A stretch of DNA of 64,000 nt from an uncultured bacterium (GCA_965372355.1 CBDVBZ010000004.1:5119-69118), one strand, 5' to 3'. Numbered from the stretch's first letter, positions 3,462 through 56,034 are shown. The notes: generated from the letters alone by a model not told the origin. Numbers and translations are program-made.

Positions 3462-4301
3462 CTAGATGCGGCCCAGCGCCATCGCGAGGATGCCAAAGAA
3501 CATCTGCACCTTGAGAATCCGGCTCGTCCAGTGCAGGGCGACCCGCTCACGCGAGCGGAGCGCGAGAAAGGCGGCGGCCAGGACACCGGGGACGAAGAGG
3601 AGTTCCATGACAAACCCGTAGGTTATTCCGTAGTAGCCGACCAACGCCGGCACTGGGGAAACGATGACGCACAGATACAGTGAAGCGGCGGCCCAAAGAA
3701 CCGCGACCCTCGCACCGTAACGGACGGCAATGGTCGACGCGCCGGCCTCGCGGTCACCGGGGATATCCTCGGCACCCTTGACCAGCTCGCGGCCCATGAC
3801 CAGCAGAAATGCCAGCAGCGCGGGAAACCCGGTTGCCTCGAAGTTGCCGGTCGGGATCGCGCCACCCACAAAGGCACTCGCGGCGATCGCCGCGACCAGA
3901 AGGTTTCCGGCAAGCGCGATACGTTTTCCCTTGCGCGCATAGTAGTAGAGTAGAACTTGCCACCCCAGAATGAGGGAGAACATCGGCGGGGACAACAGCG
4001 CGATCGCAAGAACTACTGTAATGACGGAACCGACGAGGTATGCGCGAAGGACGTACCCGGGTGTCAGCCGCCCGGACGGAATCGGCCGCCGGGGTTTGTT
4101 CACCCGGTCTATGTCACGATCGCAGTAGTCATTGATCAGATTGCCGAGCCCGGTAACAAAAGCGGTGAAGATGAACGGCAACGAGATATCCGCGGGGCGC
4201 GTACCGCCCGAAAGCAGGTAGCCCGCTACGATGCAACCACCCGCAGCGATCATGTTGTGGGGCCGAGTGATTTCGATCGTCGCGAGCAACCGAGCAGCCA
4301 C
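3462..4301 (-). CDS. UbiA-family aromatic/isoprenoid prenyltransferase (integral membrane)
   Basis: 279 aa, polytopic. First Asp-rich motif NDYCDRDIDRVNKPRRPIPSG is typical of the UbiA/DGGGP-synthase superfamily. Substrate cannot be assigned from sequence. Confidence 0.8.
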   Translation of the reverse strand: MAARLLATIEITRPHNMIAAGGCIVAGYLLSGGTRPADISLPFIFTAFVTGLGNLINDYCDRDIDRVNKPRRPIPSGRLTPGYVLRAYLVGSVITVVLAIALLSPPMFSLILGWQVLLYYYARKGKRIALAGNLLVAAIAASAFVGGAIPTGNFEATGFPALLAFLLVMGRELVKGAEDIPGDREAGASTIAVRYGARVAVLWAAASLYLCVIVSPVPALVGYYGITYGFVMELLFVPGVLAAAFLALRSRERVALHWTSRILKVQMFFGILAMALGRI

Positions 4302-7094: not shown

Positions 7095-8573
7095 CTAAGC
7101 CTCTTCGTCGCCAACCTGGATCTCGAGCTCGATTTTGATCGGGACGGTCTTGCGCATCTGTGACCGTTTGAGATACACGGGGACCGTCACGGTGACCGGT
7201 TCGTCATCCTGGCTGGCCACAGGCGATGGGTGCCCCGGCGGCGGGCTCGCTGTCCTGGGGGGTGGCGATGTCGCCTCCTTGGGCTCCGGCTCCTCTGTTT
7301 CGGCCGTTTTGGACTGAAACGGGTCGACGATAAACTCTCCCCCTTGCGAATCCGTGGGTAACTCGACCGGCGTGTCATCGAAATCGATCACGCGGCCGAC
7401 GTCCTCGTCCACTTCCCGGGAGCTCTCCAACGACGCAAACTGGAACTCCTTGTCGAGGGAGTCATCCATCTTCTTCTCGGTGCCCGCGTTGGCTTCCCCC
7501 AGAGGCGTCTGGGCCATCGGGGGCGCCGTTTCGATCTTCCCGGGCTTAGATGGCGCTGATGTCACGACACGTGGCGTATCCGGCACCGGCACGTTGTTCT
7601 CTTCCACCTCGCGGAGCGCGCTGTCGACCACATCGGAAACGTCGTCGCTCACCGCGGGCGGCTTCGGACCGGCCGGCTGAGACGCCCAGGGCTGCGATTG
7701 GGTTGTCTGCGCGGCCGTCGGCTGCGATCGGGTTGTCTGCGCGGCCGTCGGCTGCGATTGGGTTGTCTGCGCGGCCGTCGGCTGCGATTGGGTTGTCTGT
7801 GCGGCCGTCGGCTGCGATCGGGTTGTCTGCGCGGCCGTCGGCTGCGGCTCGGTGACGTGCGGCATGGGTCCGTGAGCGGCCACCGGCTGCGGCTCCGGAG
7901 TCTGCGGCGTGGGAGGCGCCTCGGTCTGCGACTCCTGCGGCGAACCTTCCACCCCGGCTCCGACACGCGGCGCCGGCTGGGTGCTCTTCAGGCGTTCAAC
8001 GAGCTGCCGGTACAGCAATCCGCCGATCGCGCGGAATGTCTCGTAGATACCGTGGCCGGTCGTCGCAACCGCCTCATAGCTCGGAACGTTCAACAGATTC
8101 AGCTTGCTGTTCAGCATCGCGACGGGCAGTGCGCCGGGGAGATCCCGCTTGTTGTACTGGATCACCCACGGCATCGTATCGAGCGTCAAGCTGTGCTCGT
8201 TGAGGTTTTCCTCGAGGTTGCGAAGGCTTTCGATGTTCTCCTCCATCTTCGAGGCCTGGGAATCCGCGACAAACACCACGGCGTCGGCTCCCTTCAAAAC
8301 TAGTTTTCTCGTCGCGTTGTAGTAGACCTGTCCCGGCACCGTGTAAAGTAGTATCCGTGTTCGATAACCGTTGATCTCCCCGACATCTAGTGGTAAGAAA
8401 TCGAAGAAGAGGGTCCGATCGGTCCGGGTTTTCATCGACACCATTTTGCCCTTCGTGTCCTCCGGCATTCTTTCGTAGATAAATTCGAGATTCGTCGTTT
8501 TGCCACTCAAAGCCGGCCCGTAATAGACGACCTTGGCGTTGAGCTCGGCTCCTGAGTAATTGAAAACAACCAT
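7095..8573 (-). CDS. mglA: MglA-family Ras-like small GTPase with ~300-aa low-complexity C-terminal extension
   Basis: From [33 protein letters not shown]... the first ~195 aa align closely with Myxococcus MglA ([59 protein letters not shown]). P-loop GPALSGKTT, switch-I Thr, TVPGQ and NKRD are all present. The tail is Pro/Thr/Gln-rich with five QPTAAQTT[RQ]S repeats and an acidic segment. The ORF-track start at 8729 is a 52-aa artefactual extension. Confidence 0.85.
   Translation of the reverse strand: [492 protein letters not shown]
7690..7855. repeat. 30-bp tandem repeat, ~5.4 copies (GGCTGCGAT[TC]GGGTTGTCTGCGCGGCCGTC), in-frame inside mglA-like tail
   Basis: Directly visible periodicity at 7690-7719, 7720-7749, 7750-7779, 7780-7809, 7810-7839, plus a partial unit. 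Encodes the [10 protein letters not shown] decapeptide repeats. Confidence 0.9.
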
Positions 8574-8804
8574 GGAATGTCCCCTCGAGTCGCGCGATGC
8601 GGTTGCGGTTGACAAGTGGCGAGTCGCGCGGCCTGTCACAGGTGGTGTACGATACGAATGACTGCAATCGGTTTCGGAGAAGCGGCCAGAGGCCGTTCCG
8701 CTTCGCCTCTCGCGCAAGTACCGTGCCAAGGGTGGGCCTCATCCCGAGGGTGGGATTTTGCCTAATCGCTTGCCGTCAAGTCAAATACGAGTCTAATACG
8801 GTGG

Positions 8805-9731
8805 GTGAGCCGTGACGGCCGGGCCACCCGCGTGCATTCTGCTTGGGTATATAGCAACATGATGCGATCGACCAAGAACGGCGTGGGGACGCGGGTTTCG
8901 CGAACAAGACCGTCTCCGGGATACCGGGCGGTCACGTGGCTCGCGTCCAAAACGCCTCACCCGATGCTCGTGCGGCTGGCAAAACTCGGCGGATGGATCC
9001 ACTACTGGGCTGCTCGTGACAAGCGTCGAAACTACTTGAACAATACGTCACAAGCAATTGACTTCAATGGCACTACAAAACCGTGGCATGCGTTCCAGAA
9101 TCAAGTACTCAACATCCTCGAACTCCTCAAGGCGACGTCGGAGACCGAAGTCCAGGTGATCTCGCGGCTGTCGCTGCACGGTGGCGAGCATATCGACTCC
9201 GCGCTGCAACTTGGAACCGGCTTGATTCTAACCACGATGCATTCCGGCAACTGGGAGTTGTCCGGGCTGCTCCTGTCCTTACGCGGCTACCCGATTACGA
9301 CCGTCGCGGGAACCCAGCTCCGGGAGGGCTGGTCCGATGAAGTCAAGGCGTTCAAGGAGCGCCACGGCATCAGTGTGATTTCGCCCCACAACAGCATGAG
9401 GCCGCTGTATCGGGCTCTACAGTCAAATCGAATCGTTGTCCTTCACATCGATGGCGATGTTTATCGAGCGGGTATCGAAGCGACGCTTCTCGGCAGAACG
9501 GTGATGGTTCCGCGCGGTCCCGCCCACCTCTCTCGAGCGGTGGGTGCACCCACTGCTTTCGCATACTGCCGGCGAACCGCCGACAACCGCTTGCTCGTCC
9601 ACGTCGAGTCACCCCACGCCCCACCAAGCACGGATGCGGATGAGCTTCGGTTGACGCAGCACTACGTTGGCCGCCTCGAAAATTGTATATTGGAAGACCC
9701 TAGCCAGTGGTGTATATTTAGCAGACTGTGA
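8805..9731 (+). CDS. LpxL/HtrB/MsbB-family lipid acyltransferase (LABLAT superfamily; PatA-like)
   Basis: Family motif TTMHSGNWELSG (H-x-GNWE). Downstream ...VLHIDGDVYRAGIEATLLGRTVMVPRGPAHLSRAVGAPTAFAYCRR is typical of lauroyl/palmitoyl acyltransferases. Start could be the internal MMRS (~8859). Confidence 0.8.
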   Translation: MSRDGRATRVHSAWVYSNMMRSTKNGVGTRVSRTRPSPGYRAVTWLASKTPHPMLVRLAKLGGWIHYWAARDKRRNYLNNTSQAIDFNGTTKPWHAFQNQVLNILELLKATSETEVQVISRLSLHGGEHIDSALQLGTGLILTTMHSGNWELSGLLLSLRGYPITTVAGTQLREGWSDEVKAFKERHGISVISPHNSMRPLYRALQSNRIVVLHIDGDVYRAGIEATLLGRTVMVPRGPAHLSRAVGAPTAFAYCRRTADNRLLVHVESPHAPPSTDADELRLTQHYVGRLENCILEDPSQWCIFSRL

Positions 9732-9756
9732 GTGGTCACCGAATCCGGCGGGTCAC

Positions 9757-10938
9757 ATGAAGGTTGTACAAGTTACCCAATCCTACCATCCCCGTCCCGG
9801 TGGAGTGACGGAGCACGTCGATCACGTCACCCGGGAGCTCAGACGTCGCGGCCACGAAGTGACGATTGTCACCACGAATTTCGGCCATGGCTGCGCCGAG
9901 CAGCCGGGCGTCATCCGTATCGGACGCAATGCCCTCGTCCCGATAAACAGCGCCTGGGTCAACATGACCGTCGGCTGGAATCTGCAACGCGAACTTGCCC
10001 GCGTTCTCGACTCGCAACAGCCCGACGTCATCCACACGCACTGCCCGCTGGCACCGACGCTTCCACTCATGACACTCCTGGCGGCTCCCGAGAGCTCAGC
10101 CGTCATTGGGACGTTCCATGCGGCGGCGCGGCAGAGCCTCGGCTACCGGGTCTTTGGCGGCGTGCTCGAGAAATTTGCCGCGCGACTCGACGTGCGCATT
10201 GCAGTCTCGGATGCGGCGCGGTCTCTGGCGGACTCGTACTTCCCTGGCGACTATGTCATCGTCCCGAACGGGGTTGACTGTGAACGGTTCTCTCCGCGCC
10301 ATAAACCAATCGAGGACTTCAAAGACAACGCGTTCAACATCCTGTTTGTCGGACGCATGGACAAACGCAAGGGGCTCAAGTACCTCTTTCGAGCCGTCGC
10401 GTTGGCCGCAAGACGCACGTCGCGGCGTCTTCGTTTGATCGTCGTTGGTGATGACGGCCCCCGGAGGCATCTGCTGCCGAGGATCAACGATGTTGTCGAA
10501 GTCGTTTTCACCGGTGTTGTCGATCGTGATCTGGTGCCGCGCTACTTCGCAACAGGCGATATGTTCTGCTCACCGGCAATAGACCGCGAGAGCTTTGGAA
10601 TCGTTCTTCTGGAAGCGATGGCCTCGGGGCTTCCCGTCGTCGGGACTACGATACGAGGCTATCTGACCATACTCAAGCCGGAGCAGAATGCGCTCGTCGT
10701 CCCGCCAAAGGACCCCACCGCGCTGTGTGACGCCATCGTGCGGATGGCCGAGGACGAACCCCTGCGCTGGAGGCTGCGCAAGGCGGGGCTGAGCTTCGCC
10801 CAGTCCTACCGATGGGACCGCGTCGTCGATCAGCTCGAAGCGGTCTATCGAGGACAAACGGAATTGCAGACCGCCTGGCAATCCGCCGATGCGCAGCTCA
10901 TCGCGGAATCGCCCCCCGCGAGGGCACAAAAGGCCTAG
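9757..10938 (+). CDS. GT4 glycosyltransferase, PimA-like (phosphatidylinositol mannosyltransferase-like)
   Basis: From MKVVQVTQSYHPRPGGVTEHVDHVTRELRRRGHEVTIVT. Blocks RIAVSD...VPNGVD...FVGRMDKRKG...CSPAIDRESFGIVLLEAMASGLPVV parallel mycobacterial PimA (RIAVSD, IPNGVD, FLGRYDEPRKG, CAPHLGGESFGIVLVEAMAAG). The ORF-track start at 9667 is an extension. Confidence 0.8.
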   Translation: MKVVQVTQSYHPRPGGVTEHVDHVTRELRRRGHEVTIVTTNFGHGCAEQPGVIRIGRNALVPINSAWVNMTVGWNLQRELARVLDSQQPDVIHTHCPLAPTLPLMTLLAAPESSAVIGTFHAAARQSLGYRVFGGVLEKFAARLDVRIAVSDAARSLADSYFPGDYVIVPNGVDCERFSPRHKPIEDFKDNAFNILFVGRMDKRKGLKYLFRAVALAARRTSRRLRLIVVGDDGPRRHLLPRINDVVEVVFTGVVDRDLVPRYFATGDMFCSPAIDRESFGIVLLEAMASGLPVVGTTIRGYLTILKPEQNALVVPPKDPTALCDAIVRMAEDEPLRWRLRKAGLSFAQSYRWDRVVDQLEAVYRGQTELQTAWQSADAQLIAESPPARAQKA

Positions 10939-10943
10939 CCGCT

Positions 10944-12176
10944 GTGCCGTCTTCGCGCGCTCTCAAACTCTGTTTTCTTTTCTTTGCACTCGCTCAGATC
11001 ACGTCGATATTCGGTGATCGTCTCCATCAGTTCTCCGTCGTGGGAATGATCGGGCGCATCAACCCCGGCGATGCCGTCGAGCTCTATCAACTCGCTCTTT
11101 TTTCGTTTTTGCCCGTCCTCGTCTTTGCCCCCATGTTTGGCAGCCTGATCGACCGGTCCAACAAAGCCCTCGTGCTGATCGTGGTCGATCTGATCCGCGG
11201 GGGTATCGTGCTTCTGGTTCCCACGCTGTTCTACCTGATGGGCAACCTGTACGCGTTCTATCTGCCCGTGCTTTTCCTCTCGCTCGCCAACCTCTGGTTC
11301 GCGCCCGCGAAGTCTGCCGTCATCCCGGAGATCTTCGGCGAGCGATATCTGCTGCAAATCAACGCGGTCCTCTGGGGACTGGGAATCGTCGGCACGCTGG
11401 GCGGATTTCTGCTGGGCGGGTGGCTGATCGACTTCCACAGCTGGGAACTGAGCTTCTACAGCGACGGCGCGAGCTATCTGATCTCGGTGGTGTTTCTGCT
11501 CCCCATGCTCGCCGTGGCCCGCGCGCGAAAGAACAAATGCTCGAAACAAACGGCGACGCCTGCCGGCGACGCCGCGCGCGGCATGATCGGCTCCGTTCGC
11601 GAGGGACTCGTTCTCATTCGGGGCAACCGGCCGGTGGCATACGGACTGATCACCCAAACCACGTTGTTCGGGGGCCTCGGTATCCTCTACGTGATCGGCA
11701 TTGCGCACATCCAGTCGGTGTTTCCACCGGACAGGACGATTTACCTGAGCATCGTCGCGTCGGCCGCGACGGTTGGTCTCCTGGCAGGCGCCGCGCTCGG
11801 GGCGGCGTTGAGGCGATGGCTATCCGTCAACCCGGTGATCGCGCAGTCGACCTTTCTTCTCGCGATCTCCTGCATCGGCATTGCCAGAACTGACACGCTC
11901 GTACCCATGACCGTTTGGGCGCTCGTCATGGGGATCTCGCTGTCGCCTCTCTTCATCGTCACGGAAACGCTTCTCCAGGTGTCGACACCGGAGGCGTTCC
12001 GGGGGCGCGTGTTCTCCTCCCGCGAGGTTCTGACAAAGGCATCGTTTCTCTTGATGTCATCGGTAGCGACGCTCGCAACAGCGCTCGTCGGCAAAGAAAC
12101 CATCATAATGGGCGTCGGCGTAGTTCTTGCAGGACTTGCGATGTTGCTCGCAACGAAGAACTTCCTTAAGGCGTAG
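10944..12176 (+). CDS. MFS-type transporter (12 predicted TM helices)
   Basis: Hydrophobic helices throughout (LCFLFFALAQITSIFGDRL..., GLGIVGTLGGFLLGGWLIDF...). Putative GTG start at 10944 just after the upstream stop; the ORF-track start at 10812 overlaps the GT4 gene. Confidence 0.7.
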   Translation: MPSSRALKLCFLFFALAQITSIFGDRLHQFSVVGMIGRINPGDAVELYQLALFSFLPVLVFAPMFGSLIDRSNKALVLIVVDLIRGGIVLLVPTLFYLMGNLYAFYLPVLFLSLANLWFAPAKSAVIPEIFGERYLLQINAVLWGLGIVGTLGGFLLGGWLIDFHSWELSFYSDGASYLISVVFLLPMLAVARARKNKCSKQTATPAGDAARGMIGSVREGLVLIRGNRPVAYGLITQTTLFGGLGILYVIGIAHIQSVFPPDRTIYLSIVASAATVGLLAGAALGAALRRWLSVNPVIAQSTFLLAISCIGIARTDTLVPMTVWALVMGISLSPLFIVTETLLQVSTPEAFRGRVFSSREVLTKASFLLMSSVATLATALVGKETIIMGVGVVLAGLAMLLATKNFLKA

Positions 12177-12205
12177 AATCATTACTCAAAGCGGGTGATC
12201 CTGCT

Positions 12206-12646
12206 GTGCGCATAATCGAAAAGATGCTAAACGAGATGTTCGCCAGGCTTCTGAACATCGAAATTGACCCAGCTGTTGTGGAAAAACTCGTACCCGTAGT
12301 TGCCGGTGTCTCTGAAAAGATCAAAGGCACCCTCGATCTCGACACCGTGCAGGGGCAGAATACGTTTCGCGCACTCATCTGCAGCATGATTGCGCACGGT
12401 TGGGGACTCGGCATGCATCCCGACAACAACCCACGGCGAAATCTCGACGACAAGAGGCTCGAGGTCAAGGTCTGCAAGGACATCCTCGTACCGATGGAGA
12501 CCCTGAAGGCGATACGCTACGTCCAGAAAGATGAATACGGCCGTGTCAAAAAGGCGCTCTTCGAGCCCGACCAAAACGCGAGGATATGGAATCAGATCGA
12601 TGAAATGCTGGGGCGAGTCGCCAAAGAGAAGTCGCAGGAGGACTAA
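12206..12646 (+). CDS. hypothetical protein
   Basis: 146-aa ORF in an otherwise unoccupied interval, with mixed charged/hydrophobic composition. No recognisable motif. Confidence 0.45.
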   Translation: MRIIEKMLNEMFARLLNIEIDPAVVEKLVPVVAGVSEKIKGTLDLDTVQGQNTFRALICSMIAHGWGLGMHPDNNPRRNLDDKRLEVKVCKDILVPMETLKAIRYVQKDEYGRVKKALFEPDQNARIWNQIDEMLGRVAKEKSQED

Positions 12647-13560
12647 GGCTTCTTATCGCCTTCGTTCACGGGCGGGTGTGAGTTGCCGTTGATCTTCTCG
12701 AGCTCCACGGACCGTCCACCATCCGAATACACCACCTTGTCCATGATGCTCTGCATCAGATACACTCCCCTCCCCGAGGACCGGAGCACGTTCTGACCCC
12801 TGGTGGGATCCGCTATCGCGGCGAAGTCAAACCCTTCCCCTTGATCCTTGATCTTGATCTTGAAACGCGACGAGCTCACATAGATGTGTACGCTCACCTT
12901 CTTGTGGGGGTCGGATCGATTGCCATGGAGCATGGCGTTTGTCAGCGCCTCGTCACAGGCCAGCGGGATATTGATCCTGCAGTCCGTCGGCGGATAGGAG
13001 AATTCCTTCAACAGGAGTGAAATCAGGTAGTTCAAACCGAGCACGAACGCGAGATCGTTTGGGATCAGGAAATCGAGCCGGACCATCCCGCGTCCCATGA
13101 GATCGGGGTACCGCTTGAACTGTGGGATATTGGGAAGCGCCGTTGCGATTTCCGCCTTGAGATCGATGTCCTCGTACGGCGGCAAGAGCACGTTCTGCAC
13201 TCCGATCGACTGGAACCTCAGGAAACTCACCTGCGGGCACTCACCCAACACGAGCAAATAGTTGAGTTGCGGATACTCGAGCTTGCAACTGCGCAGGAGC
13301 GGAGCGTCGATATCCTGCGCCTTCTTCTCGACGATGACAGCAAAGGCCAGGCTGAGCTTCTCCACCCGGGCAAGCGCCTCCATCAACTTTTCGATACTGG
13401 AATGGACCGTGTAGTGCTCCGGAGCGCCGGAGCATTTTGAAAGAACTACCCTGAGGTGCCCGGAATCACTCGAAACGACGTAGACTATTGGCTCTCGAGC
13501 TCTGGGCGCTTCTTGATATGCGTGACCCGGTACGTGGCGTTCAGAATACTTTTTGCCCAT
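12643..13560 (-). CDS. RsbW-like GHKL ATPase/serine-kinase domain protein with N-terminal pseudo-receiver-like domain
   Basis: C-terminal N-box ACDEALTNAMLHGN and G1-box KDQGEGFD match the HATPase_c fold of anti-sigma-factor kinases. The N-terminal ~190 aa show alternating beta/alpha hydrophobic blocks (IVYVVSS, LAFAVIV, YLLVLG) suggestive of a REC/STAS-like fold. Start taken at MGKKYSE. Confidence 0.6.
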   Translation of the reverse strand: MGKKYSERHVPGHAYQEAPRAREPIVYVVSSDSGHLRVVLSKCSGAPEHYTVHSSIEKLMEALARVEKLSLAFAVIVEKKAQDIDAPLLRSCKLEYPQLNYLLVLGECPQVSFLRFQSIGVQNVLLPPYEDIDLKAEIATALPNIPQFKRYPDLMGRGMVRLDFLIPNDLAFVLGLNYLISLLLKEFSYPPTDCRINIPLACDEALTNAMLHGNRSDPHKKVSVHIYVSSSRFKIKIKDQGEGFDFAAIADPTRGQNVLRSSGRGVYLMQSIMDKVVYSDGGRSVELEKINGNSHPPVNEGDKKP

Positions 13561-14149
13561 CCGCCAAAATCTCGTTGAGCGCTTCTTTGAAGTAGTCGGT
13601 TGATTTGGCAACCTCAGGCCCGACTTTTTCCTTGTAGAGTTCCCAGGATTTCTTTATCTCGTCACCCAGAGCCATCATGAGATTGCCGTCGACGAGCGCC
13701 TGATCCCGTTTATCCTGGTTGTAACACAGGATATCGGAAACCAGAACCCTGGCGAGCCGCCTGGCCCTGTCCTGCTCGGTGTCCCTGCGGCGCTTCCTTC
13801 GCGGCGGCGTCTTCGCAGACGCGCGTTCCGGTGTCGCAGGTGGACTCGCCTTCTCGTCGGGTTGTCCGCCGGCATCCGTCTTCAGAGCGGGCTCGCGTTT
13901 CAGCTCCACGCCCGATCCCTCGGGTGGTTTTGTAAACGCCGCCTGCTCCTGCATTCCAACGGTGGTATCCGGCGATTTCGCCGGTGACCTTACCATGACG
14001 TCTTCGACACCGACAACCACATTCTGGCGTTGCGGCGCCAGGGTGAAAACCGCCTTGCACTGCGGGCACCGGACACGTGTGGGTTTGGATGGAACCTTTG
14101 CATCCGGCAGAAAATATTTCGCCGCACACCCCTCACAGAGAATGGTCAT
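13541..14149 (-). CDS. zinc-ribbon (MJ0042-type CxxC...CxxC) protein with Pro-rich linker and conserved C-terminal helical domain
   Basis: N-terminus MTILCEGCAAKYFLPDAKVPSKPTRVRCPQCKAVF. Pro/Ala/Lys-rich linker with an RRKRRR patch. C-terminal ...ARVLVSDILCYNQDKRDQALVDGNLMMALGDEIKKSWELY.... Confidence 0.55.
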   Translation of the reverse strand: MTILCEGCAAKYFLPDAKVPSKPTRVRCPQCKAVFTLAPQRQNVVVGVEDVMVRSPAKSPDTTVGMQEQAAFTKPPEGSGVELKREPALKTDAGGQPDEKASPPATPERASAKTPPRRKRRRDTEQDRARRLARVLVSDILCYNQDKRDQALVDGNLMMALGDEIKKSWELYKEKVGPEVAKSTDYFKEALNEILADGQKVF

Positions 14150-30303: not shown

Positions 30304-32418
30304 TCAACTCTTGCCTCGTCGCGCTGCTGCGTCCCTGCAGTAGATGCGGACGATTCCCGAACTGGTGGACTTCCCGGGCGCAGGTTTCTGCGACGTGACC
30401 ACACCGGTTCCGCTGATCGAACAGCGCAGCCCCGCCTGGACGGCTTTTCGTTTCGCCGCTCGAATTGGCAAACCCCTGAGATCGGGTGTCTTGTGCTGGG
30501 CCGTGCGCGACGAGCCCTCACTCAAATAGAGTCTCAACACTTCGTCCCGTCCCATTGCGACTCCGGGATCGGGGTCCTGCGCGACCACTTTGCCACTATT
30601 CCCGTTGCACAGGACGTTGAGCTCGAGCTGTCTGGCCTGCGCCATCGCCCGAGCGCGTTCGAGCCTCAGAAAATTCGGAGCGATGATCGTCTCTCCGTTC
30701 CCTGCGGACCCATCCTCCAGGACATCGGTTGTGAGCACCTGATCGAACATCGACGATGAGTTGGCGATCGCGGCCATCATCTTCGAGAACACGGGCGCCG
30801 CCGACACGCCGCCAAAGCGGTTGCGATAGTTGGGTTCATCCAGCATGACGAGGCAGACGATCTGCGGATTCTCGTAGGGCGCGAACCCGACAAAGCTCGC
30901 GATGAATCTGTTCTCCGAGTACCCCCCGGACGAACAAGCCTTCTCCGCCGTCCCTGTCTTGCCCGACAACTCCAGGTACACGAGGTCCGCTCGCTGACCG
31001 GTTCCCTCTTCGACGACGGAACGGCAGAAGCTTCTCAGGCGCTGCGCGGTGTCTTTGGAAACAACCCGTCGAACCCTGACCGGCTCGAAGGTCTCGATAT
31101 CTTCTTTGTTCTCATCGATGATCGATTTGACGATTCTCGGCTTCATCAGAACACCGTCGTTGGCAATCGCCGCAAACGCGTTGGCCAGCTGCAGTGGTGT
31201 CACGGCGATCTCCTGACCGAACGCCATCGTGATCTGCGTTCGTCTGGACCACTTTTTAACTGGCGCCACACTCCCCGCGGACTCGCCGAGGAATCGGATA
31301 CCGGTCTTCGCGCCAAAACCAAAGAGCCGGACGAACTCGAAAAACTCGAGTGGCTTGAGATTGAGCGAGGCCTTGGCCATTACGATATTGCTCGAAAAAA
31401 CAAATCCTTCCCGGAAGGTCAGGTGGCCGTAGGGGTGCGAATCCGATATAACGGCCACACCCATGTCCGCCCGACCGTTCTCGGCATCAAAAACATCGAA
31501 ACTGCGGACCTTCGAGGTCTGAAGCAAGGCGGCGGCGGTCACCAGCTTGAACGTGGATCCCGGCTCGTAGACATTGGACACGGACCGTAATGTCCACAGC
31601 GAATCGGCCAGGTCCCTGGCCCCTCGTGATGCCGCCGAGGGAGACTCGGCGAGTGCCAGGACCCCCCCGGTCGGCACGTTCAGTATGATAAGCGCCCCCC
31701 CGTTCGCGCCCGATTCCCGGACGGAGCGCTCCAACTCGAGCTCGGCGATCTCCTGAAGACCCGCATCGATCGTGAGGACGACGTGCCTGCCGTTGAGCGG
31801 TTTTTCTTCCGCGTATGTGTAATAGCCCTTCGATTTGTAGGTACCGTCTCTCTGCACCACTTCCCAGCCCGGAGTCCCGGCCAGTGTTTCATCGAAGGCC
31901 GCCTCGATGCCGGCCCTTCCCTCGCTCTCGTGCCCCACGAACCCCACGATCTTCGCCGCCGTGCTGCCAAATGGGTATATACGGTCCGCCTCGCGGTGGA
32001 TTTCCACACCACACAACCCTTTGATCTCCAGACGGGCCTCGTCCGACAACGCGCACTGTCGTTTGACATAGACAAAAGACTTGTCGGAACGGAGCAGTTT
32101 CTTGACCGCGCTTTTTGGCATGGAGAGATGTCGTGAGAGAACGGATACGACTTCCCCGCCTTTCTGCACCTTCTGCGGGTTGAGCGATACCGAGCAGGAC
32201 CTGATACTCAGCGCAAGCGGGCGGCCGTTGCGGTCAAAAATGCCTCCACGAATCGGAGGCACCTGTTTCTTGACCTTCCACTGATCCGTCGCCATGTCGG
32301 CGTAGTGGGCTCTCGAGAAGATCTGCACCTTAATCAATTTACCCCAGAGAACCAGGGTAAGAATCACGAACACGCCACCGACGACATAGAGCCGAAAATT
32401 TCGTTTCTTGCGTCTCAT
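30304..32418 (-). CDS. ftsI: peptidoglycan D,D-transpeptidase FtsI (class B PBP) with two C-terminal PASTA-like repeats
   Basis: N-terminal TM, dimerisation domain, transpeptidase motifs (STFK: EPGSTFKLVTAA; SxN; KTG: SGKTGTA). C-terminal IIAPNFLRLERARAMAQARQLELNVL... and PDLRGLPIRAAKRKAVQAGLRCSISG... resemble PASTA units. Confidence 0.92.
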   Translation of the reverse strand: MRRKKRNFRLYVVGGVFVILTLVLWGKLIKVQIFSRAHYADMATDQWKVKKQVPPIRGGIFDRNGRPLALSIRSCSVSLNPQKVQKGGEVVSVLSRHLSMPKSAVKKLLRSDKSFVYVKRQCALSDEARLEIKGLCGVEIHREADRIYPFGSTAAKIVGFVGHESEGRAGIEAAFDETLAGTPGWEVVQRDGTYKSKGYYTYAEEKPLNGRHVVLTIDAGLQEIAELELERSVRESGANGGALIILNVPTGGVLALAESPSAASRGARDLADSLWTLRSVSNVYEPGSTFKLVTAAALLQTSKVRSFDVFDAENGRADMGVAVISDSHPYGHLTFREGFVFSSNIVMAKASLNLKPLEFFEFVRLFGFGAKTGIRFLGESAGSVAPVKKWSRRTQITMAFGQEIAVTPLQLANAFAAIANDGVLMKPRIVKSIIDENKEDIETFEPVRVRRVVSKDTAQRLRSFCRSVVEEGTGQRADLVYLELSGKTGTAEKACSSGGYSENRFIASFVGFAPYENPQIVCLVMLDEPNYRNRFGGVSAAPVFSKMMAAIANSSSMFDQVLTTDVLEDGSAGNGETIIAPNFLRLERARAMAQARQLELNVLCNGNSGKVVAQDPDPGVAMGRDEVLRLYLSEGSSRTAQHKTPDLRGLPIRAAKRKAVQAGLRCSISGTGVVTSQKPAPGKSTSSGIVRIYCRDAAARRGKS

Positions 32419-41391: not shown

Positions 41392-43785
41392 CTAGCGAAT
41401 CAACGAGATCGTTCTGACGACCGTGCCCGTGTCCGCCGATATTCGAACCAGATATACACCGCTTGCCGCGAAAAACCCGGATTCCGTCGTCAGATCCCAC
41501 ACCTCGCGTTCATTGGGACGGACGTTTTCCTCCGCGTGGACCAGCTCGCCTTCCAGTGTGTAGATCTCGATGTCGACCGGGCTGTTGTGATTCGCGATCT
41601 TCAACATGGTGTGGCCCCGGCGCGGGCGAATCGGGTTTGGGTATAGATAGACCTTTGAAAGATCCGTCGGGCCCGGTTCCAATGACGACAGATCCAGTAT
41701 AGATAAACCACCCGCGGTTGCAATGTAAAGCAGGTTCTGAGTCGGATGCAGCGTGAGGGCATGACAGAGCGCATCGGCCAGCGCCGACACAACCTTCTTC
41801 TGGTCAGGAAAGAAAAGACTCAGTTGCTCCCGCCACGCGGCCTGCGTAGTGAAGGACAAGATCTCGCGCTCATTGTCCCGGCTGATCCGGTTCAGACCCA
41901 AATCGGTGGCCACCCAAAGGTTTTCGTCGTGGTCGAGCGCAAGATCCATAACGGCGTTGCTGAGTAATTCGCCCCCCAACCCACGCTTCGCTTGAAACCT
42001 TCTGAACAAACCGTTCTCGTATCCATAAACCCCCGCTTTCGTACCCACCCACACAACCCCGTCGCTCCGCACGGTCACGGCGGACACGTCTCCGCCGTCG
42101 AAGTCATCGGCGACCGTACCCAAATGGGTCCACACATCGCCCGACAGATCGAAGAGGCTGGCTTTGTCGTACCCTCCGGTTCTCCACTCCCGGACGCCGT
42201 CCGATGCGTCCGCAACCCAGACCACCCCCCCGGGGCCAAAAGCGACGTCTGTGATATCGCCCACTTGCATGCCGAGGTTTGTGCTCGTGGGCGTGATGTG
42301 CCGCCATTCGTTTCCGTCTTCGCTCAAGATACTGATGCCGCGCCATTCGTCCGGGGCTGTTCCGCCGGGGTCGACAGCGTGCAGAAACCACCGGTTGCCC
42401 GCGGGGTCTTCCATTGCCCTATGGTGTCTCAACGATCCCAAACCGTCGCCGCCACCGGATCCGATGTCGTGATGTGTCCAGATATCGTTTTCGTACGAAA
42501 GATCCAAACCATCCTCCAGCTGGTCAACCTCTATCTCCGGCACTAACGGCCTCCACAACGAACAGAACCACTTCGATCCTTGCGAATCGGCAAGTAAGGC
42601 GAGGTTCGTGGACCGAGTACTCAGATTCGTGTCACCAACGGCGGGGTTGTAGTTGAACCACGTTCCACTCGGTGTCAGTTTGCCAACGCCAAAGCTCGCA
42701 CTCGACACCCACAACGACCCATCGATATCGAATGAGCTGCGACGCAGGTCTCTGCCCGTTGGCGCGTTGGCGCGCAGATCCCGCACGGTCGTTCCATCAA
42801 AAAGGAGAAGGTATCCACCGCGGCCGCGGCTCACCTGGCCGGTTCCCATATAGACCGTCCCATCCACCATGGGTTGAAGTCCGCGGGTCTCGGCCTGGCT
42901 GTTGAGCCCGTACTTGTGGAAGATGTGGACAAAGCTATGGGTGATCCACCCGCTGCCGTCGTTTTCGAACAACCGGGAATTCGACGCCGCCCAAAGCTTC
43001 TGTCCGCCAAACTTGATCGAGAAGATCGATTCTGTGCCGAGCCCCGCCGGGATCCACGTGCCGCCAGAATCATCGAGATACGCCAGACCAGCGCTGGTAC
43101 CTACCCACAGTGCGGTGTCGTCTCTGGCAAACACGTGTGCATTGAGACTCGGGAGACCGTTCGATACCTCCTCCGTGAAGCCAAGACGGTCGCGTCTGGC
43201 GACACCGTTGTCCGTCGCAAACCACAGGAAGTCACCGTCGACAAAGACGTCCGCGATCTCCTCGCTCGGCAGACTGTCCGTGGGAAACCGGGAACTCGGA
43301 AACCCGGCAACGATGAGACCGGCGCCGGCCTTGGTGCCGTAAACAACACTGTCTCCCCAGGCCGTCACCGTTGTTATGCGATCGTCGGCAATCCCATCCC
43401 CGGTGGCCTCGAATGTGCTCACATCGAACCCCCCGGGCACGAAGTCGAGCCGGGCAATCCCCAACCGGTCGGTTCCGACCCAAAGCGAGCCCTTGCTGTC
43501 GAACGCAAGACACGTGAGAAAGCTCGTTGGAAGACCGATCGTGTTGGTAAACTGTTCGAAGGTCGAGTCGTCGGGTTGGTATACGAGAAGTCCGCCGCTC
43601 GTCGCGCAGTAGAGTTCCCCGTCCCTCATGACGATCTCCGAAATGAGGTTTGGGTTGATATGATTGACCCACTCGCTCTGCTGGGCTTCGGCGTCCTCAC
43701 GCCAGATCGTAGCGATGGCAATGAGAACGAGGAGGTGTCTCGAGATTCGACGGATTGGGCTGATCATTGGTGGTATAGCGCGCAC
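41392..43785 (-). CDS. secreted multi-bladed beta-propeller protein (Reg_prop-like repeats) with T9SS-type C-terminal sorting domain
   Basis: Signal peptide MISPIRRISRHLLVLIAIATIWREDAEAQ. Many W/G-rich repeats (GSLWVGTDRLGIARLD, TALWVGTSAGLAYLD, GVVWVGTKAGVYGY, NLWVATDLGLNRI). C-terminal ~85 aa LYPNPIRP...IEIYTLEGELVH...EVWDLTTESGFFAASGVYLVRI matches the Por/T9SS CTD (or FlgD-Ig-like) pattern. Confidence 0.75.
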   Translation of the reverse strand: MRAIPPMISPIRRISRHLLVLIAIATIWREDAEAQQSEWVNHINPNLISEIVMRDGELYCATSGGLLVYQPDDSTFEQFTNTIGLPTSFLTCLAFDSKGSLWVGTDRLGIARLDFVPGGFDVSTFEATGDGIADDRITTVTAWGDSVVYGTKAGAGLIVAGFPSSRFPTDSLPSEEIADVFVDGDFLWFATDNGVARRDRLGFTEEVSNGLPSLNAHVFARDDTALWVGTSAGLAYLDDSGGTWIPAGLGTESIFSIKFGGQKLWAASNSRLFENDGSGWITHSFVHIFHKYGLNSQAETRGLQPMVDGTVYMGTGQVSRGRGGYLLLFDGTTVRDLRANAPTGRDLRRSSFDIDGSLWVSSASFGVGKLTPSGTWFNYNPAVGDTNLSTRSTNLALLADSQGSKWFCSLWRPLVPEIEVDQLEDGLDLSYENDIWTHHDIGSGGGDGLGSLRHHRAMEDPAGNRWFLHAVDPGGTAPDEWRGISILSEDGNEWRHITPTSTNLGMQVGDITDVAFGPGGVVWVADASDGVREWRTGGYDKASLFDLSGDVWTHLGTVADDFDGGDVSAVTVRSDGVVWVGTKAGVYGYENGLFRRFQAKRGLGGELLSNAVMDLALDHDENLWVATDLGLNRISRDNEREILSFTTQAAWREQLSLFFPDQKKVVSALADALCHALTLHPTQNLLYIATAGGLSILDLSSLEPGPTDLSKVYLYPNPIRPRRGHTMLKIANHNSPVDIEIYTLEGELVHAEENVRPNEREVWDLTTESGFFAASGVYLVRISADTGTVVRTISLIR

Positions 43786-55044: not shown

Positions 55045-56034
55045 CTAAATGGTGGAGGCATCGGCCCTTGGGTTGGACATCTCGCGCCTACGGGCTAAAA
55101 AGAACGCAAAACCGAGCAGACTAATCGAGACCGAGATCAGATAGGTCAGGAATTCTATCGCGAACGCATCGGTCCGTCCGATCCCTGCCTGCGCAAAGAG
55201 CAAGATTCCCAACCCCTCCCTGACACCAAGCCCGTTTATCGTGATCGGGGGTATCATGGCCAGACCCAGCACCGGCACAAAGACGAAAAACAACCCAAAG
55301 ACCACGGCGTCGATCGGCACACCCAGCGCGACCGCCGCGAGAACGTGCGTCATGACCCGGAGGAACTGGATGACCAGCGACAGGAGAATCAGCCTCAGAA
55401 CGAGCCACCGCCTGCTCTTGAACTCACTCAGGCCATCGAATATCCATCCCGCCCGTTTGTCGACCGACAACGGGCGAATCAGACCCACGAGCCGTCTCAG
55501 AAGTGTGCCCAGTGGCTTGATGAAATAGAAGCCCACCAACGGCATCATGCATCCGAGAAACACAATCAGGTAGACGGCTACGGTCCCGCCCGGCCAGAAC
55601 GCCGTGCTCAGCAACACGGCCGCAACGGCCAACAGACAGAGGCTGAAAATCCCGATAAAGCGATCCATCAGTGTGACCGCCGTCACCCGATAGACGTTGC
55701 TGCCTATTCGGCTGACATCGTAGATCTTCATCGCGTCCCCGCCGATATTCGCCGGCAGGAAGTTGTTGAAAAACAACCCCACGAAATAGAAGCGAAACGA
55801 TTGCGGAAAAGTCAGTCGAACGCCCGATGCGACCAGAAGGAAATGCCACTGGAGTGCGCCGAGGACGTTACTCACAAAGAAGACGAGGATGGCAAGCGCC
55901 ACGGTGGCTCGATCGAGGGTCCGCACGAGGGCGAACAGATCCTCGAGCGATATCTTGCTGACGAGAAAAATCAAGAGCCCGGCGCTTACCAGGAGCTTGA
56001 CCAGGAGCTTTGCTAACGGACCGGGCGCCTTCAT
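55045..56034 (-). CDS. LPG_synthase_TM/UPF0104-type flippase-like integral membrane protein
   Basis: Start at MKAPGPLAKLLV (ATGA overlap with the upstream GT4 stop). 8 TM helices with a conserved ...FFNNFLPANIGGDAMKIYDV... block. The 93-aa Arg/Gly-rich extension in the ORF track is rejected. Confidence 0.65.
   Translation of the reverse strand: MKAPGPLAKLLVKLLVSAGLLIFLVSKISLEDLFALVRTLDRATVALAILVFFVSNVLGALQWHFLLVASGVRLTFPQSFRFYFVGLFFNNFLPANIGGDAMKIYDVSRIGSNVYRVTAVTLMDRFIGIFSLCLLAVAAVLLSTAFWPGGTVAVYLIVFLGCMMPLVGFYFIKPLGTLLRRLVGLIRPLSVDKRAGWIFDGLSEFKSRRWLVLRLILLSLVIQFLRVMTHVLAAVALGVPIDAVVFGLFFVFVPVLGLAMIPPITINGLGVREGLGILLFAQAGIGRTDAFAIEFLTYLISVSISLLGFAFFLARRREMSNPRADASTI

What the first reader, a model, noticed from the sequence alone, without database searches (positions are those of the whole stretch)
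8805..12176. PatA/PimA-like pair (HtrB-family acyltransferase + PimA-like GT4) followed by an MFS transporter: candidate mannosyl-phosphoinositide-type glycolipid module
An LpxL/HtrB-family acyltransferase with the H-x-GNWE motif is followed immediately by a GT4 enzyme. That is the patA-pimA arrangement that builds acylated phosphatidylinositol mannosides in Actinobacteria.

The GT4 enzyme's conserved blocks parallel mycobacterial PimA:
- RIAVSD;
- VPNGVD;
- FVGRMDKRKG;
- ESFGIVLLEAMASG.

An MFS transporter follows directly, reminiscent of lysophospholipid (LplT-type) transporters paired with acyltransferases.

The same window also encodes a Dpm1-like polyprenyl-P-sugar synthase and several GT-C enzymes (45.9-54.9 kb). 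These are the enzyme classes that extend PIMs to lipomannan-type lipoglycans. Such a pathway in a non-actinobacterial, T9SS-bearing lineage would be noteworthy.
Basis: inference. Interest (0 to 1): 0.5.

Follow-up and report, generated by a model that had tools for sequence, protein, structure and literature searches.

The report
PimA/PatA-like glycolipid operon with transporter
An uncultured Latescibacterota/Krumholzibacteriota-like bacterium carries a tight four-gene operon whose two enzymes are the closest known relatives of the mycobacterial pair that builds acylated phosphatidylinositol mannosides. It belongs to a distinct, uncharacterised branch that is coupled to a membrane transporter instead of an inositol-lipid synthase, so the lipid it decorates is still unproven.

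Summary

Among solved structures, PimA and PatA are the best matches by wide margins (147 vs 73 bits; 55 vs 20 bits).

In about 170 related loci the GT4 family splits into two context types:
- **Terrabacteria type** (Chloroflexota, Dormibacterota, Dehalococcoidia): keeps PimA's acceptor residues Y9 and R68 and sits beside a phosphatidylinositol-phosphate synthase (PIPS)-like gene.
- **FCB type** (this window, Krumholzibacteriota, Eisenbacteria, WOR-3): has S9 and N/D68, is followed by the MFS, and has no PIPS nearby.

There is one exception. In an Eisenbacteria clade (six loci), a lipid cassette ending in a PIPS-like gene sits between the GT4 and the orthologous MFS, at the same chromosomal position as the window operon.

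I therefore favour a PIM-like acylated glycosyl inositol-phospholipid that the MFS flips (confidence about 0.5). A non-inositol acceptor stays open (about 0.3).

No PI synthase or inositol-phosphate synthase lies in the window, and I could not search the rest of the genome. The proposed link to the GT-C glycan cluster 33 kb away is unsupported.

Verdict: new variant of a known kind, moderate interest.

The parts
8730..8858 (.). Divergent intergenic region between the MglA/Arf-like GTPase gene (minus strand) and the operon. It is the presumed promoter region.
   Evidence: Inference from gene layout. The consensus scan found no sigma-70-like site on the + strand here. One weak minus-strand site lies at 8784-8755. 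FCB-type promoters are not covered by that scan.
8859..9731 (+). HtrB/LpxL-superfamily acyltransferase, PatA-like, about 290 aa. The ORF is open from 8805, and some gene callers start at 8964.
   Evidence: Pfam PF03279, E = 4e-26. NCBIfam PatA model PRK07920 is the best hit at 97.9 bits, below its cut-off of 209. PDB PatA 5f2t/5oce scores 55 bits, against 20 bits for 5kn7. The catalytic His sits in HSGNWE, and PatA E200 aligns with Asp in HIDGD (roles from PMC4792965). The start was chosen from alignment A3.
9757..10938 (+). GT4 (GT-B) glycosyltransferase of the PimA-like family, MFS-linked (S9/N68) subfamily, 393 aa.
   Evidence: PDB PimA 2gej/4n9w scores 147 bits (E = 7e-42) over residues 12-365, and the next hit scores 73 bits. 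G15, G16, H118, R196, R201, K202, E274 and E282 are conserved. Y9, Q18, Y62 and R68 are not. It equals P0001.
10944..12176 (+). MFS transporter of about 410 aa, DHA3/LplT-like. Proposed lipid flippase.
   Evidence: Pfam MFS_1. NCBIfam TIGR00900 scores 107 bits, the MFS part of PRK08633 73 bits, and LplT 38 bits, all below cut-off. The GTG start lies 5 nt after the GT4 stop. It is found directly after the GT4 in 32 S9/[DN]68 loci. No solved-structure sequence match.
12206..12646 (+). Conserved 146-aa protein of unknown function ('p146'), the fourth gene of the operon.
   Evidence: It always follows the MFS in the closest clade (L003-L011, L089, L090, L092). Only 468 homologues are known, and all that carry a name are called 'hypothetical'. 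It is 58-83% identical where the acyltransferase and MFS are 32-62% and the GT4 48-61%. No Pfam or NCBIfam hit. The AF2 model has pLDDT 58 and gives no credible fold match.

Best explanation
Window 8859-12646 is a four-gene operon that builds and moves an acylated membrane glycolipid of the Ac-PIM1 type.

Proposed steps, all inferred from homology:
1. On the cytoplasmic face of the inner membrane, the PimA-like GT4 transfers a hexose from a nucleotide sugar to the head group of a membrane lipid. By analogy the sugar is mannose from GDP-mannose.
2. The PatA-like acyltransferase then esterifies a fatty acyl chain onto that sugar.
3. The MFS, which resembles DHA3/LplT transporters, flips the product or its precursor across the inner membrane. 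This would mirror S. aureus LtaA, which flips the glycolipid made by YpfP (recalled from memory).
4. The 146-aa protein is an obligatory partner of unknown role.

The acceptor is most likely an inositol phospholipid made by a PIPS/AIPS-like CDP-alcohol transferase encoded elsewhere in the genome.

What is shown: the homologies, the catalytic residues, the operon structure and the neighbourhood patterns. What is inferred: the sugar, the acceptor, the order of the steps and the direction of transport.
For: 1. PimA and PatA are the closest characterised relatives by wide margins.
2. The donor-side and catalytic residues of PimA (G15, G16, H118, R196, R201, K202, E274, E282) are invariant across the whole family. 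The PatA catalytic His plus an acidic partner are kept.
3. The genes are spaced 25, 5 and 29 nt apart in the window. In relatives the starts and stops overlap.
4. The order acyltransferase-GT4 is kept from Actinobacteria through Chloroflexota and Dormibacterota to the FCB phyla.
5. In 44 loci with R68-type GT4s and 9 with T68-type, a PIPS/AIPS-like gene lies in the same locus, in many cases immediately beside the GT4. In the neighbour-joining tree, MsPimA and these PIPS-linked GT4s lie outside the window's clade.
6. In six Eisenbacteria loci (L015, L032, L110, L111, L170, L171) a lipid cassette lies next to the acyltransferase-GT4 pair. In the four loci that extend far enough (L015, L032, L170, L171) it ends in a PIPS-like gene directly upstream of an MFS. 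In L170 and L171 RecG follows, with the dcw/FtsZ genes after it, which is the window operon's chromosomal position. The L015 PIPS-like protein scores AIPS 125, BT1523-type PIPS 101 and PIPSynth 99 bits, against PgsA 22, and its best PDB match is PIPS 5d91.
7. The L015 MFS is 49-68% identical to the MFS genes that follow the GT4 directly in other Eisenbacteria loci, so it is their orthologue.
8. Complete myo-inositol synthesis has been reported in some Latescibacterota MAGs (PMC12993501).
Against: - R68, whose alanine mutant is inactive and which is proposed to hold the PI phosphate, is N here and D in Eisenbacteria. Y9 and Y62 are also changed (PMC9202250).
- The split tracks gene context almost perfectly. 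Y9/R68 goes with PIPS next door, and S9/[DN]68 goes with the MFS next door. That pattern is what a change of acceptor would produce.
- No CDP-alcohol transferase motif occurs in the 64-kb window. None occurs within 10 kb in the 12 closest loci or in about 30 other MFS-type loci.
- Both enzymes fall below curated equivalog cut-offs.
- The six cassette loci may trace back to a single evolutionary event.
- I could not show that PIPS or MIPS is present in this genome, or in any genome of the p146-bearing clade.
Confidence: 0.5

Rival explanations
1. Same machinery, different acceptor. The MFS-linked S9/[DN]68 subfamily has moved away from PI and glycosylates another membrane lipid. Candidates are diacylglycerol, a ceramide or other sphingoid lipid, an amino- or ether-lipid, or a lysophospholipid delivered by the LplT-like MFS. 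The product would be an acylated glycolipid without inositol.
For: - Residue 68 is R (44 loci) or T (9 loci) where PIPS is adjacent. It is N or D (neutral or acidic, a poor phosphate ligand) in 32 loci where the MFS is adjacent. Y9 becomes S in the same set.
- PIPS and the MFS are almost mutually exclusive as neighbours of the GT4.
- The window and all close loci lack PIPS.
- The cassette found in Eisenbacteria also encodes a serine-palmitoyltransferase-like enzyme, a lipid kinase and a PlsC-like enzyme. The local lipid chemistry is therefore unusual.
- A DGGGP-synthase-like UbiA gene is syntenic with the operon.
Against: - T68 Chloroflexia enzymes are still PIPS-linked, so R68 is not strictly needed for PIPS linkage.
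- D68-type enzymes are the ones found with a PIPS-like gene in the same locus, between them and their MFS.
- No glycosyl-diacylglycerol synthase model scores near PimA. The MGlcDAG synthase model gives 50 bits.
Confidence: 0.3
2. Lipopolysaccharide biosynthesis. The acyltransferase would be the lineage's late (LpxL-type) lipid A acyltransferase. The GT4 would be an inner-core glycosyltransferase (WaaG/LpcC-like). The MFS would be unrelated or would export something else.
For: - The acyltransferase belongs to Pfam 'Bacterial lipid A biosynthesis acyltransferase' and hits several LpxL models weakly, at 65, 49 and 48 bits.
- The host is probably diderm. The window holds a Wzi-like OM protein gene and a weak Por_Secre_tail match.
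- The GT4 matches WaaG at 62 bits.
Against: - PatA beats every lipid A model (98 vs 65 bits; 55 vs 20 bits in PDB).
- PimA beats WaaG (147 vs 62 bits).
- The same gene pair occurs in Actinobacteria, Chloroflexota and Patescibacteria. From memory, these groups are mostly regarded as lacking LPS.
- The parts of the window scanned against Pfam/NCBIfam hold no lpx or kdo genes.
Confidence: 0.07
3. Lysophospholipid salvage, as in E. coli LplT-Aas. The MFS would flip lysolipids inward and the acyltransferase would re-acylate them. The GT4 would be a neighbour with a separate role.
For: The MFS matches the MFS part of the fused acyl-ACP-phospholipid acyltransferase model PRK08633 (73 bits) and LplT (38 bits).
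Against: - Aas uses a PlsC-type domain, not an HtrB/PatA-type one (knowledge of the family).
- The acyltransferase-GT4 pair is the ancient, invariant core, and the MFS is the later addition.
- All the MFS matches are far below cut-off.
Confidence: 0.05

Closest known systems
Mycobacterial PimA (Rv2610c / MSMEG_2935), GDP-mannose:phosphatidylinositol alpha-mannosyltransferase, GT4
   Same: - Same GT-B/GT4 fold family.
- Alignable over residues 12-365 at about 29-33% identity.
- Same nucleotide-sugar and catalytic residues: GG loop, H118, R196, R201-K202, and E274 and E282 of the EX7E motif.
- A basic stretch at the position of the membrane-binding helix.
- Sits immediately after a PatA-like gene.
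   Different: - Acceptor-side residues are changed: Y9 to S (with Y10 next to it), Q18 to T, Y62 to I, R68 to N.
- One residue is missing in the 198-DEPRKG loop.
- No adjacent PI(P) synthase gene.
- Followed by an MFS and a 146-aa gene that mycobacteria lack at this locus (my knowledge of the Rv2613c-Rv2609c operon).
Mycobacterial PatA (Rv2611c / MSMEG_2934), PIM acyltransferase
   Same: - Same HtrB/LpxL-superfamily fold.
- HSGNW[D/E] catalytic motif.
- An acidic residue at the E200 position (block 3).
- Sits upstream of the GT4.
   Different: - Only 55 bits to the solved protein, aligned over 177 residues (query 126-302).
- 97.9 bits against the 209-bit NCBIfam cut-off.
- R164 becomes K.
- The acceptor-binding residues could not be compared.
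PIPS-linked PimA/PatA-like clusters of Chloroflexota, Dormibacterota and Dehalococcoidia (uncharacterised)
   Same: - About 40% identity to the window GT4.
- Same gene order, acyltransferase then GT4.
   Different: - They keep Y9 and R68 (or T68).
- They carry a PIPS/AIPS-like gene next to the GT4.
- They often have two tandem acyltransferases.
- They have no MFS and no p146.
S. aureus YpfP-LtaA (glycolipid synthase plus MFS glycolipid flippase) and E. coli LplT (MFS lysophospholipid flippase)
   Same: A membrane-lipid-modifying enzyme co-transcribed with an MFS. There is weak family resemblance to LplT. The analogy is recalled from memory.
   Different: - No detectable sequence match to any solved MFS.
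- LtaA was not compared directly.
- The direction of transport and the substrate are unknown.

Membership tests
PimA (PI alpha-mannosyltransferase, GT4) | GT-B GT4 fold with the EX7E motif and the R196/K202 nucleotide-sugar phosphate ligands | tested here: met
   Pfam GT4 domains. 147 bits to 2gej/4n9w. G15, G16, R196, K202, E274 and E282 are conserved.
PimA (PI alpha-mannosyltransferase, GT4) | Acceptor-side residues essential in M. smegmatis PimA: Y9, Q18, Y62, N63, R68, H118 (PMC9202250) | tested here: not met
   Only N63 and H118 are kept. The others are S9, T18, I62 and N68. Q18 is also T or N in PIPS-linked relatives, so it is not diagnostic. Y9 and R68 track PIPS linkage.
PimA (PI alpha-mannosyltransferase, GT4) | Genomic linkage to a PI(P) synthase (pgsA1-patA-pimA) | tested here: not met
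   No CDP-alcohol transferase motif in the window or in the 12 closest loci. The feature is met only in a related Eisenbacteria clade.
PimA (PI alpha-mannosyltransferase, GT4) | The organism makes phosphatidylinositol (PIPS plus inositol-1-phosphate synthase in the genome) | not testable with these tools
   The rest of the genome cannot be reached. The search with an FCB PIPS-like query was saturated by Eisenbacteria and Gemmatimonadota hits. The only indirect evidence is PMC12993501, which reports myo-inositol synthesis in other Latescibacterota MAGs.
PimA (PI alpha-mannosyltransferase, GT4) | GDP-mannose as donor | tested here: inconclusive
   The guanine and ribose contacts D252, D253 and K256 are not conserved here. 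They are not conserved in the PIPS-linked relatives either.
PatA (PIM acyltransferase) | HtrB/LpxL-family domain with a catalytic His (HX4D/E) and a block-3 acidic residue | tested here: met
   PF03279. HSGNWE is present, and D aligns with E200 (roles from PMC4792965).
PatA (PIM acyltransferase) | Score above the NCBIfam equivalog cut-off (PRK07920, 209 bits) | tested here: not met
   97.9 bits. It is the best of all families but below the cut-off.
PatA (PIM acyltransferase) | Adjacent to, and co-directional with, the pimA-type GT4 | tested here: met
   25-nt gap in the window. The genes overlap by 4 bases in L003 and L005 and are separated by a few bases in L004.
LpxL/LpxM lipid A late acyltransferases | Score above cut-off for a lipid A acyltransferase model, with lpx gene context | tested here: not met
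   The best lipid A model gives 65 bits against a 248-bit cut-off. 5kn7 scores 20 bits. The parts of the window scanned hold no lpx genes.
LplT lysophospholipid transporter (MFS) | Score above the NCBIfam cut-off (PRK11195, 297 bits) | tested here: not met
   37.9 bits. TIGR00900 (DHA3) gives 107 bits against 320. The protein is related to this family but is not a member.
Mycobacterial PIM to LM/LAM pathway | PimB', PimE, MptA/B-type GT-C enzymes and Ppm1 functionally linked to pimA | tested here: inconclusive
   GT2 polyprenyl-P-sugar-synthase-like and GT-C-like genes exist at 45.9-54.9 kb. They sit in a separate glycan cluster with PglF-like, Wzx-like and sugar-transferase genes, beyond RecG and the dcw cluster. 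No orthology to Mpt or PimE was tested.

The most novel reading that the evidence does not exclude
The MFS-linked S9/[DN]68 branch of the PimA/PatA family would define a previously undescribed envelope glycolipid of uncultured diderm FCB-related phyla (Latescibacterota, Krumholzibacteriota, Eisenbacteria, WOR-3).

That lipid would be an acylated glycosyl lipid built on an unusual inositol-phospho backbone, or on a non-inositol backbone. The backbone could be sphingoid or ether-linked. Two observations point that way: the SPT-like/PIPS-like cassette in Eisenbacteria, and the syntenic DGGGP-synthase-like UbiA gene.

A dedicated MFS flippase would export it, working with a hyper-conserved 146-aa partner protein. 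In effect this would be a PIM-like anchor system invented outside the Actinobacteria.
Probability: 0.2. Interest if true: 0.7.

Novelty: new variant of a known kind. Interest (0 to 1): 0.45.

Why it matters
As far as I know, PIMs and their enzymes PimA and PatA have been studied almost only in Actinobacteria, where they are essential and are drug targets.

This analysis shows that the gene pair belongs to a large family (877 clusters at 50% identity with E <= 1e-30). The family has two context-defined branches. One is tied to inositol-lipid synthesis in Terrabacteria. The other is tied to an MFS transporter in uncultured FCB-related phyla.

If the second branch makes an inositol glycolipid, PIM-like lipids would be a much older and broader envelope component than assumed, reaching phyla thought to be diderm.

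If it uses another acceptor, the R68 to N/D switch gives a simple, testable specificity determinant for a GT4 lipid glycosyltransferase.

Either way the operon gives a concrete set of four genes to express and assay. It also offers a candidate glycolipid flippase, and it flags an unknown, extremely conserved 146-aa partner protein.

Tried and rejected
1. **Finding a PIPS in Latescibacterota.** I searched with the Eisenbacteria PIPS-like protein. The 120 listed hits were all at least 57% identical. Those that carry a name are mostly Eisenbacteria or Gemmatimonadota, so nothing can be said about Latescibacterota.
2. **Reaching the parent contig.** I tried to reach the unseen 26 kb of the 90-kb contig through proteins at the window ends. 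One protein is not on record, and the other returned only the 13.5-kb ENA contig.
3. **Naming the organism.** An exact-sequence look-up of the cluster members returned no names. The lineage is inferred only from named homologues at 57-61% identity.
5. **MFS against solved structures.** No match at E <= 0.01.
6. **A faulty motif pattern.** My first loose CDP-alcohol pattern was mis-written and gave only spurious hits. It was corrected. The strict pattern was correct.
7. **Literature.** No paper combines PIMs with Latescibacteria. Heaver et al. 2022 (PMC9246714) does not cover these phyla or PimA.
8. **Rejected ideas.**
   - LPS late acylation plus core glycosylation (see rivals).
   - A functional link to the 34-57 kb glycan cluster.
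   - Q18 as a diagnostic PimA residue, because it is T or N even in PIPS-linked relatives.

Full report
**What is there**

The region holds four co-directional genes on the + strand.
- The acyltransferase ORF is open from 8805. Alignment with five orthologues places the start near residue 19-27, so I take the ATG at 8859. Some gene callers start at 8964.
- The GT4 runs from 9757 to 10938 (393 aa, identical to database protein P0001).
- The MFS ORF is open from 10812. A GTG at 10944, five bases after the GT4 stop codon, gives a 410-aa protein of the same length as its orthologues. It also restores the first transmembrane segment.
- A fourth gene, 12206-12646 (146 aa, 'p146'), follows after 29 bases.
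- The gaps are 25, 5 and 29 nt. In relatives the neighbouring genes overlap or nearly abut. This is one operon.
- It is transcribed divergently from an MglA/Arf-like GTPase gene, and it converges on a HATPase_c_2 gene and a zinc-ribbon gene that precede recG.

**Identity of the two enzymes**

The acyltransferase:
- It matches Pfam Lip_A_acyltrans (E = 4e-26).
- Among NCBIfam models the best is the PIM acyltransferase PatA (PRK07920) at 97.9 bits. The best lipid A model gives 65 bits. All are below their cut-offs.
- Among solved structures PatA scores 55 bits, against 20 bits for the only lipid A lauroyl acyltransferase chain matched, 5kn7.
- The catalytic His lies in HSGNWE. PatA's E200 aligns with an Asp. 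Those roles come from PMC4792965.

The GT4:
- It matches M. smegmatis PimA at 147 bits (E = 7e-42) over nearly its whole length.
- The next solved GT4 scores 73 bits, WaaG 62, MshA about 60 and PimB' 45.
- JGI's pipeline already names many homologues 'phosphatidylinositol alpha-mannosyltransferase'.

The observation and the 'PatA/PimA-like' label therefore hold.

**Lineage and conservation**

- Named homologues at 57-61% identity come from Latescibacterota and Krumholzibacteriota MAGs.
- In the complete Latescibacterota genome CP070631.1 the same order is kept: ValRS, UbiA, Wzi-like, TPR, Arf-like GTPase, then acyltransferase-GT4-MFS-p146, then HATPase, Zn-ribbon and RecG.
- More distant loci keep the four-gene unit and RecG.

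**The family has two branches**

I scanned GTDB species genomes and JGI metagenomes with an alignment of the GT4. This gave 160 loci, which I searched for neighbours with phmmer and for the CDP-alcohol phosphotransferase motif.

I then read off the residues that mutagenesis showed to be essential in PimA, taken from PMC9202250, in all the GT4s.
- Donor-side and catalytic residues (G15, G16, H118, R196, R201, K202, E274, E282) are invariant throughout.
- The acceptor side splits the family, and the split follows gene context.

| Residues | Lineages | Neighbour of the GT4 | Loci |
|---|---|---|---|
| Y9 / R68 | Dormibacterota, Dehalococcoidia, other Chloroflexota, some Acidobacteriota | PIPS/AIPS-like gene in the locus | 44 |
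| Y9 / R68 | same | MFS directly downstream | 1 |
| Y9 / T68 | Chloroflexia | PIPS-like gene in the locus | 9 |
| S9 / N68 or D68 | window, Krumholzibacteriota, Eisenbacteria | MFS directly downstream, no PIPS | 32 |

- The PIPS/AIPS-like genes have the motif DGxLARxxGxxxxxGAFLDSTxD. The L045 example scores AIPS 154 bits and PIPS 133 bits.
- In a neighbour-joining tree rooted on the window's other GT4s, MsPimA branches first. The PIPS-linked enzymes come next, and the MFS-linked enzymes form a nested group.
- Q18 is T or N in almost all non-actinobacterial members, so it is not diagnostic.

**The one link between the MFS branch and inositol lipids**

- In six Eisenbacteria loci the acyltransferase-GT4 pair is followed by a lipid cassette.
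- The cassette holds, on the opposite strand, a zinc alcohol dehydrogenase, a YegS/DAG-kinase-like lipid kinase, an acetoacetate-decarboxylase-like protein and an alpha-oxoamine synthase (serine-palmitoyltransferase-like).
- On the same strand it holds a PlsC-like acyltransferase, a protein of about 335 aa with a faint Tam41 resemblance, and a CDP-alcohol transferase.
- In L015, L032, L170 and L171 an MFS follows directly. L110 and L111 end inside the cassette.
- The L015 CDP-alcohol transferase scores AIPS 125, Bacteroides BT1523-type PIPS 101 and PIPSynth 99 bits. PgsA gives 22 and PssA 23. Its best solved relatives are PIP synthases.
- The L015 MFS is 49-68% identical to the MFS genes that directly follow the GT4 in other Eisenbacteria loci, so it is their orthologue.
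- In L170 and L171 the whole arrangement sits before recG (after a Zn-ribbon gene in L171), with the FtsZ/dcw genes beyond. That is the window operon's chromosomal position.
- The same cassette occurs in Gemmatimonadota without the GT4 or the MFS, so it behaves as a separable module.
- This is a real association between a D68-type GT4, its MFS and a PIPS-like gene. It may stem from a single insertion event.

**What could not be shown**

- The window holds no CDP-alcohol transferase motif. The parts I scanned hold no inositol-phosphate synthase or lpx gene.
- I could not search the rest of this genome or of CP070631.1.
- The only indirect support is a report that sponge-associated Latescibacterota MAGs encode complete myo-inositol synthesis (PMC12993501).

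**The MFS and p146**

- The MFS resembles DHA3 transporters (TIGR00900, 107 bits), the MFS part of fused LplT-Aas-type proteins (73 bits) and LplT (38 bits). All are below cut-off. It has no solved relative by sequence.
- p146 has 468 homologues, and all that carry a name are called hypothetical.
- p146 is the most conserved protein of the operon. It is 58-83% identical where the GT4 is 48-61% and the acyltransferase and MFS are 32-62%.

**The distant glycan genes**

- 17.0-33.8 kb is the dcw cluster: FtsZ, FtsA, FtsQ, MurB, MurC, MurG, MurD, an unassigned Mur ligase, FtsI and MraW.
- 34-57 kb is a polysaccharide or protein-glycosylation-type cluster. It contains Wzx-like, FemAB-like and PglF-like genes, a protein with a weak T9SS C-terminal sorting-domain match, a GT2-sugar-transferase fusion, two polyprenyl-P-sugar-synthase-like GT2s, YfhO-like and TMEM260-like GT-C proteins, an epimerase and further GT4s.
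- Nothing connects this cluster to the operon, and relatives do not keep the two together.

**Conclusion**

- The operon most likely makes an acylated glycolipid on the cytoplasmic face of the membrane and moves it, or a precursor, with the MFS.
- I put about 0.5 on an inositol-phospholipid acceptor (a PIM-like lipid).
- I put about 0.3 on a changed acceptor, 0.07 on an LPS role and 0.05 on lysolipid salvage.
- It is a new variant of a known kind: a transporter-coupled branch of the PimA/PatA family with an altered acceptor site.

Noticed in passing
window 12206-12646 (+): The 146-aa protein with no family assignment is the most conserved gene of the operon. It is 76-97% identical among the 120 best homologues. 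It is 58-83% identical in loci where the GT4 is only 48-61%. It occurs only in the Latescibacterota/Krumholzibacteriota-like clade, not in Eisenbacteria or WOR-3. The reason for such strong constraint is unexplained.
   Followed up: partly
window 3462-4301 (-); also L003 3585-4424, L006 17-853: A UbiA-family prenyltransferase whose best NCBIfam matches are a model named only 'prenyltransferase' (188 bits) and geranylgeranylglycerol-phosphate geranylgeranyltransferase (DGGGP synthase, 183 bits). Both are below cut-off. It is syntenic with the operon in Latescibacterota and Krumholzibacteria. It recalls the archaeal-type ether-lipid genes reported in FCB bacteria (PMC7852524).
   Followed up: no
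L015 3445-10145; L170 3980-10756; L171 3859-10578; L087 and L088 (Gemmatimonadota): A conserved seven-gene lipid cassette, apparently uncharacterised. It holds a Zn-ADH, a YegS/DAGK-like lipid kinase, an ADC-like protein and a serine-palmitoyltransferase-like alpha-oxoamine synthase. Divergent from these are a PlsC-like acyltransferase, a protein of about 335 aa (faint Tam41 hit, E = 0.2) and a PIPS/AIPS-like CDP-alcohol transferase. It may make an inositol sphingo- or phospholipid.
   Followed up: partly
window 7095-8729 (-), repeats at about 7680-7830: An MglA/Arf-like small GTPase (Pfam Arf, E = 1e-5) carries a long low-complexity C-terminal half. That half includes about five tandem copies of a 10-residue unit (QPTAAQTT[RQ]S). 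The gene is divergent from the operon and is syntenic in Latescibacterota loci.
   Followed up: no
window 12643-14149 (-): A HATPase_c_2 (anti-sigma/RsbW-like kinase) protein with a long N-terminal extension, plus a zinc-ribbon (Zn_ribbon_4) protein. The pair converges on the operon. It is kept between the operon and recG in distant relatives L003, L004 and L005.
   Followed up: no
L045, L050, L056, L063, L071, L085, L127, L136 and many other Terrabacteria-type loci: The PIPS-linked clusters usually carry two tandem PatA-like acyltransferase genes upstream of the GT4. Actinobacteria carry one at this locus (from memory). The second might be the unidentified inositol acyltransferase of the PIM pathway, or a paralogue with another specificity.
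   Followed up: no
window 34000-57200: A large glycan cluster. It contains a GT2-bacterial sugar transferase fusion (43790-45925), a YfhO-like 908-aa membrane protein, a TMEM260/PMT-like GT-C with TPR repeats (52391-54919) and an LPG_synthase_TM/flippase-like protein (55045-56313). It also holds a Reg_prop protein with a weak T9SS C-terminal sorting domain (41392-43785). This suggests protein O-glycosylation or EPS synthesis.
   Followed up: partly
window 30304-32418 (-): The FtsI-type class B PBP in the dcw cluster carries a C-terminal PASTA domain. From memory, PASTA domains are mostly seen in Gram-positive PBPs and kinases.
   Followed up: no
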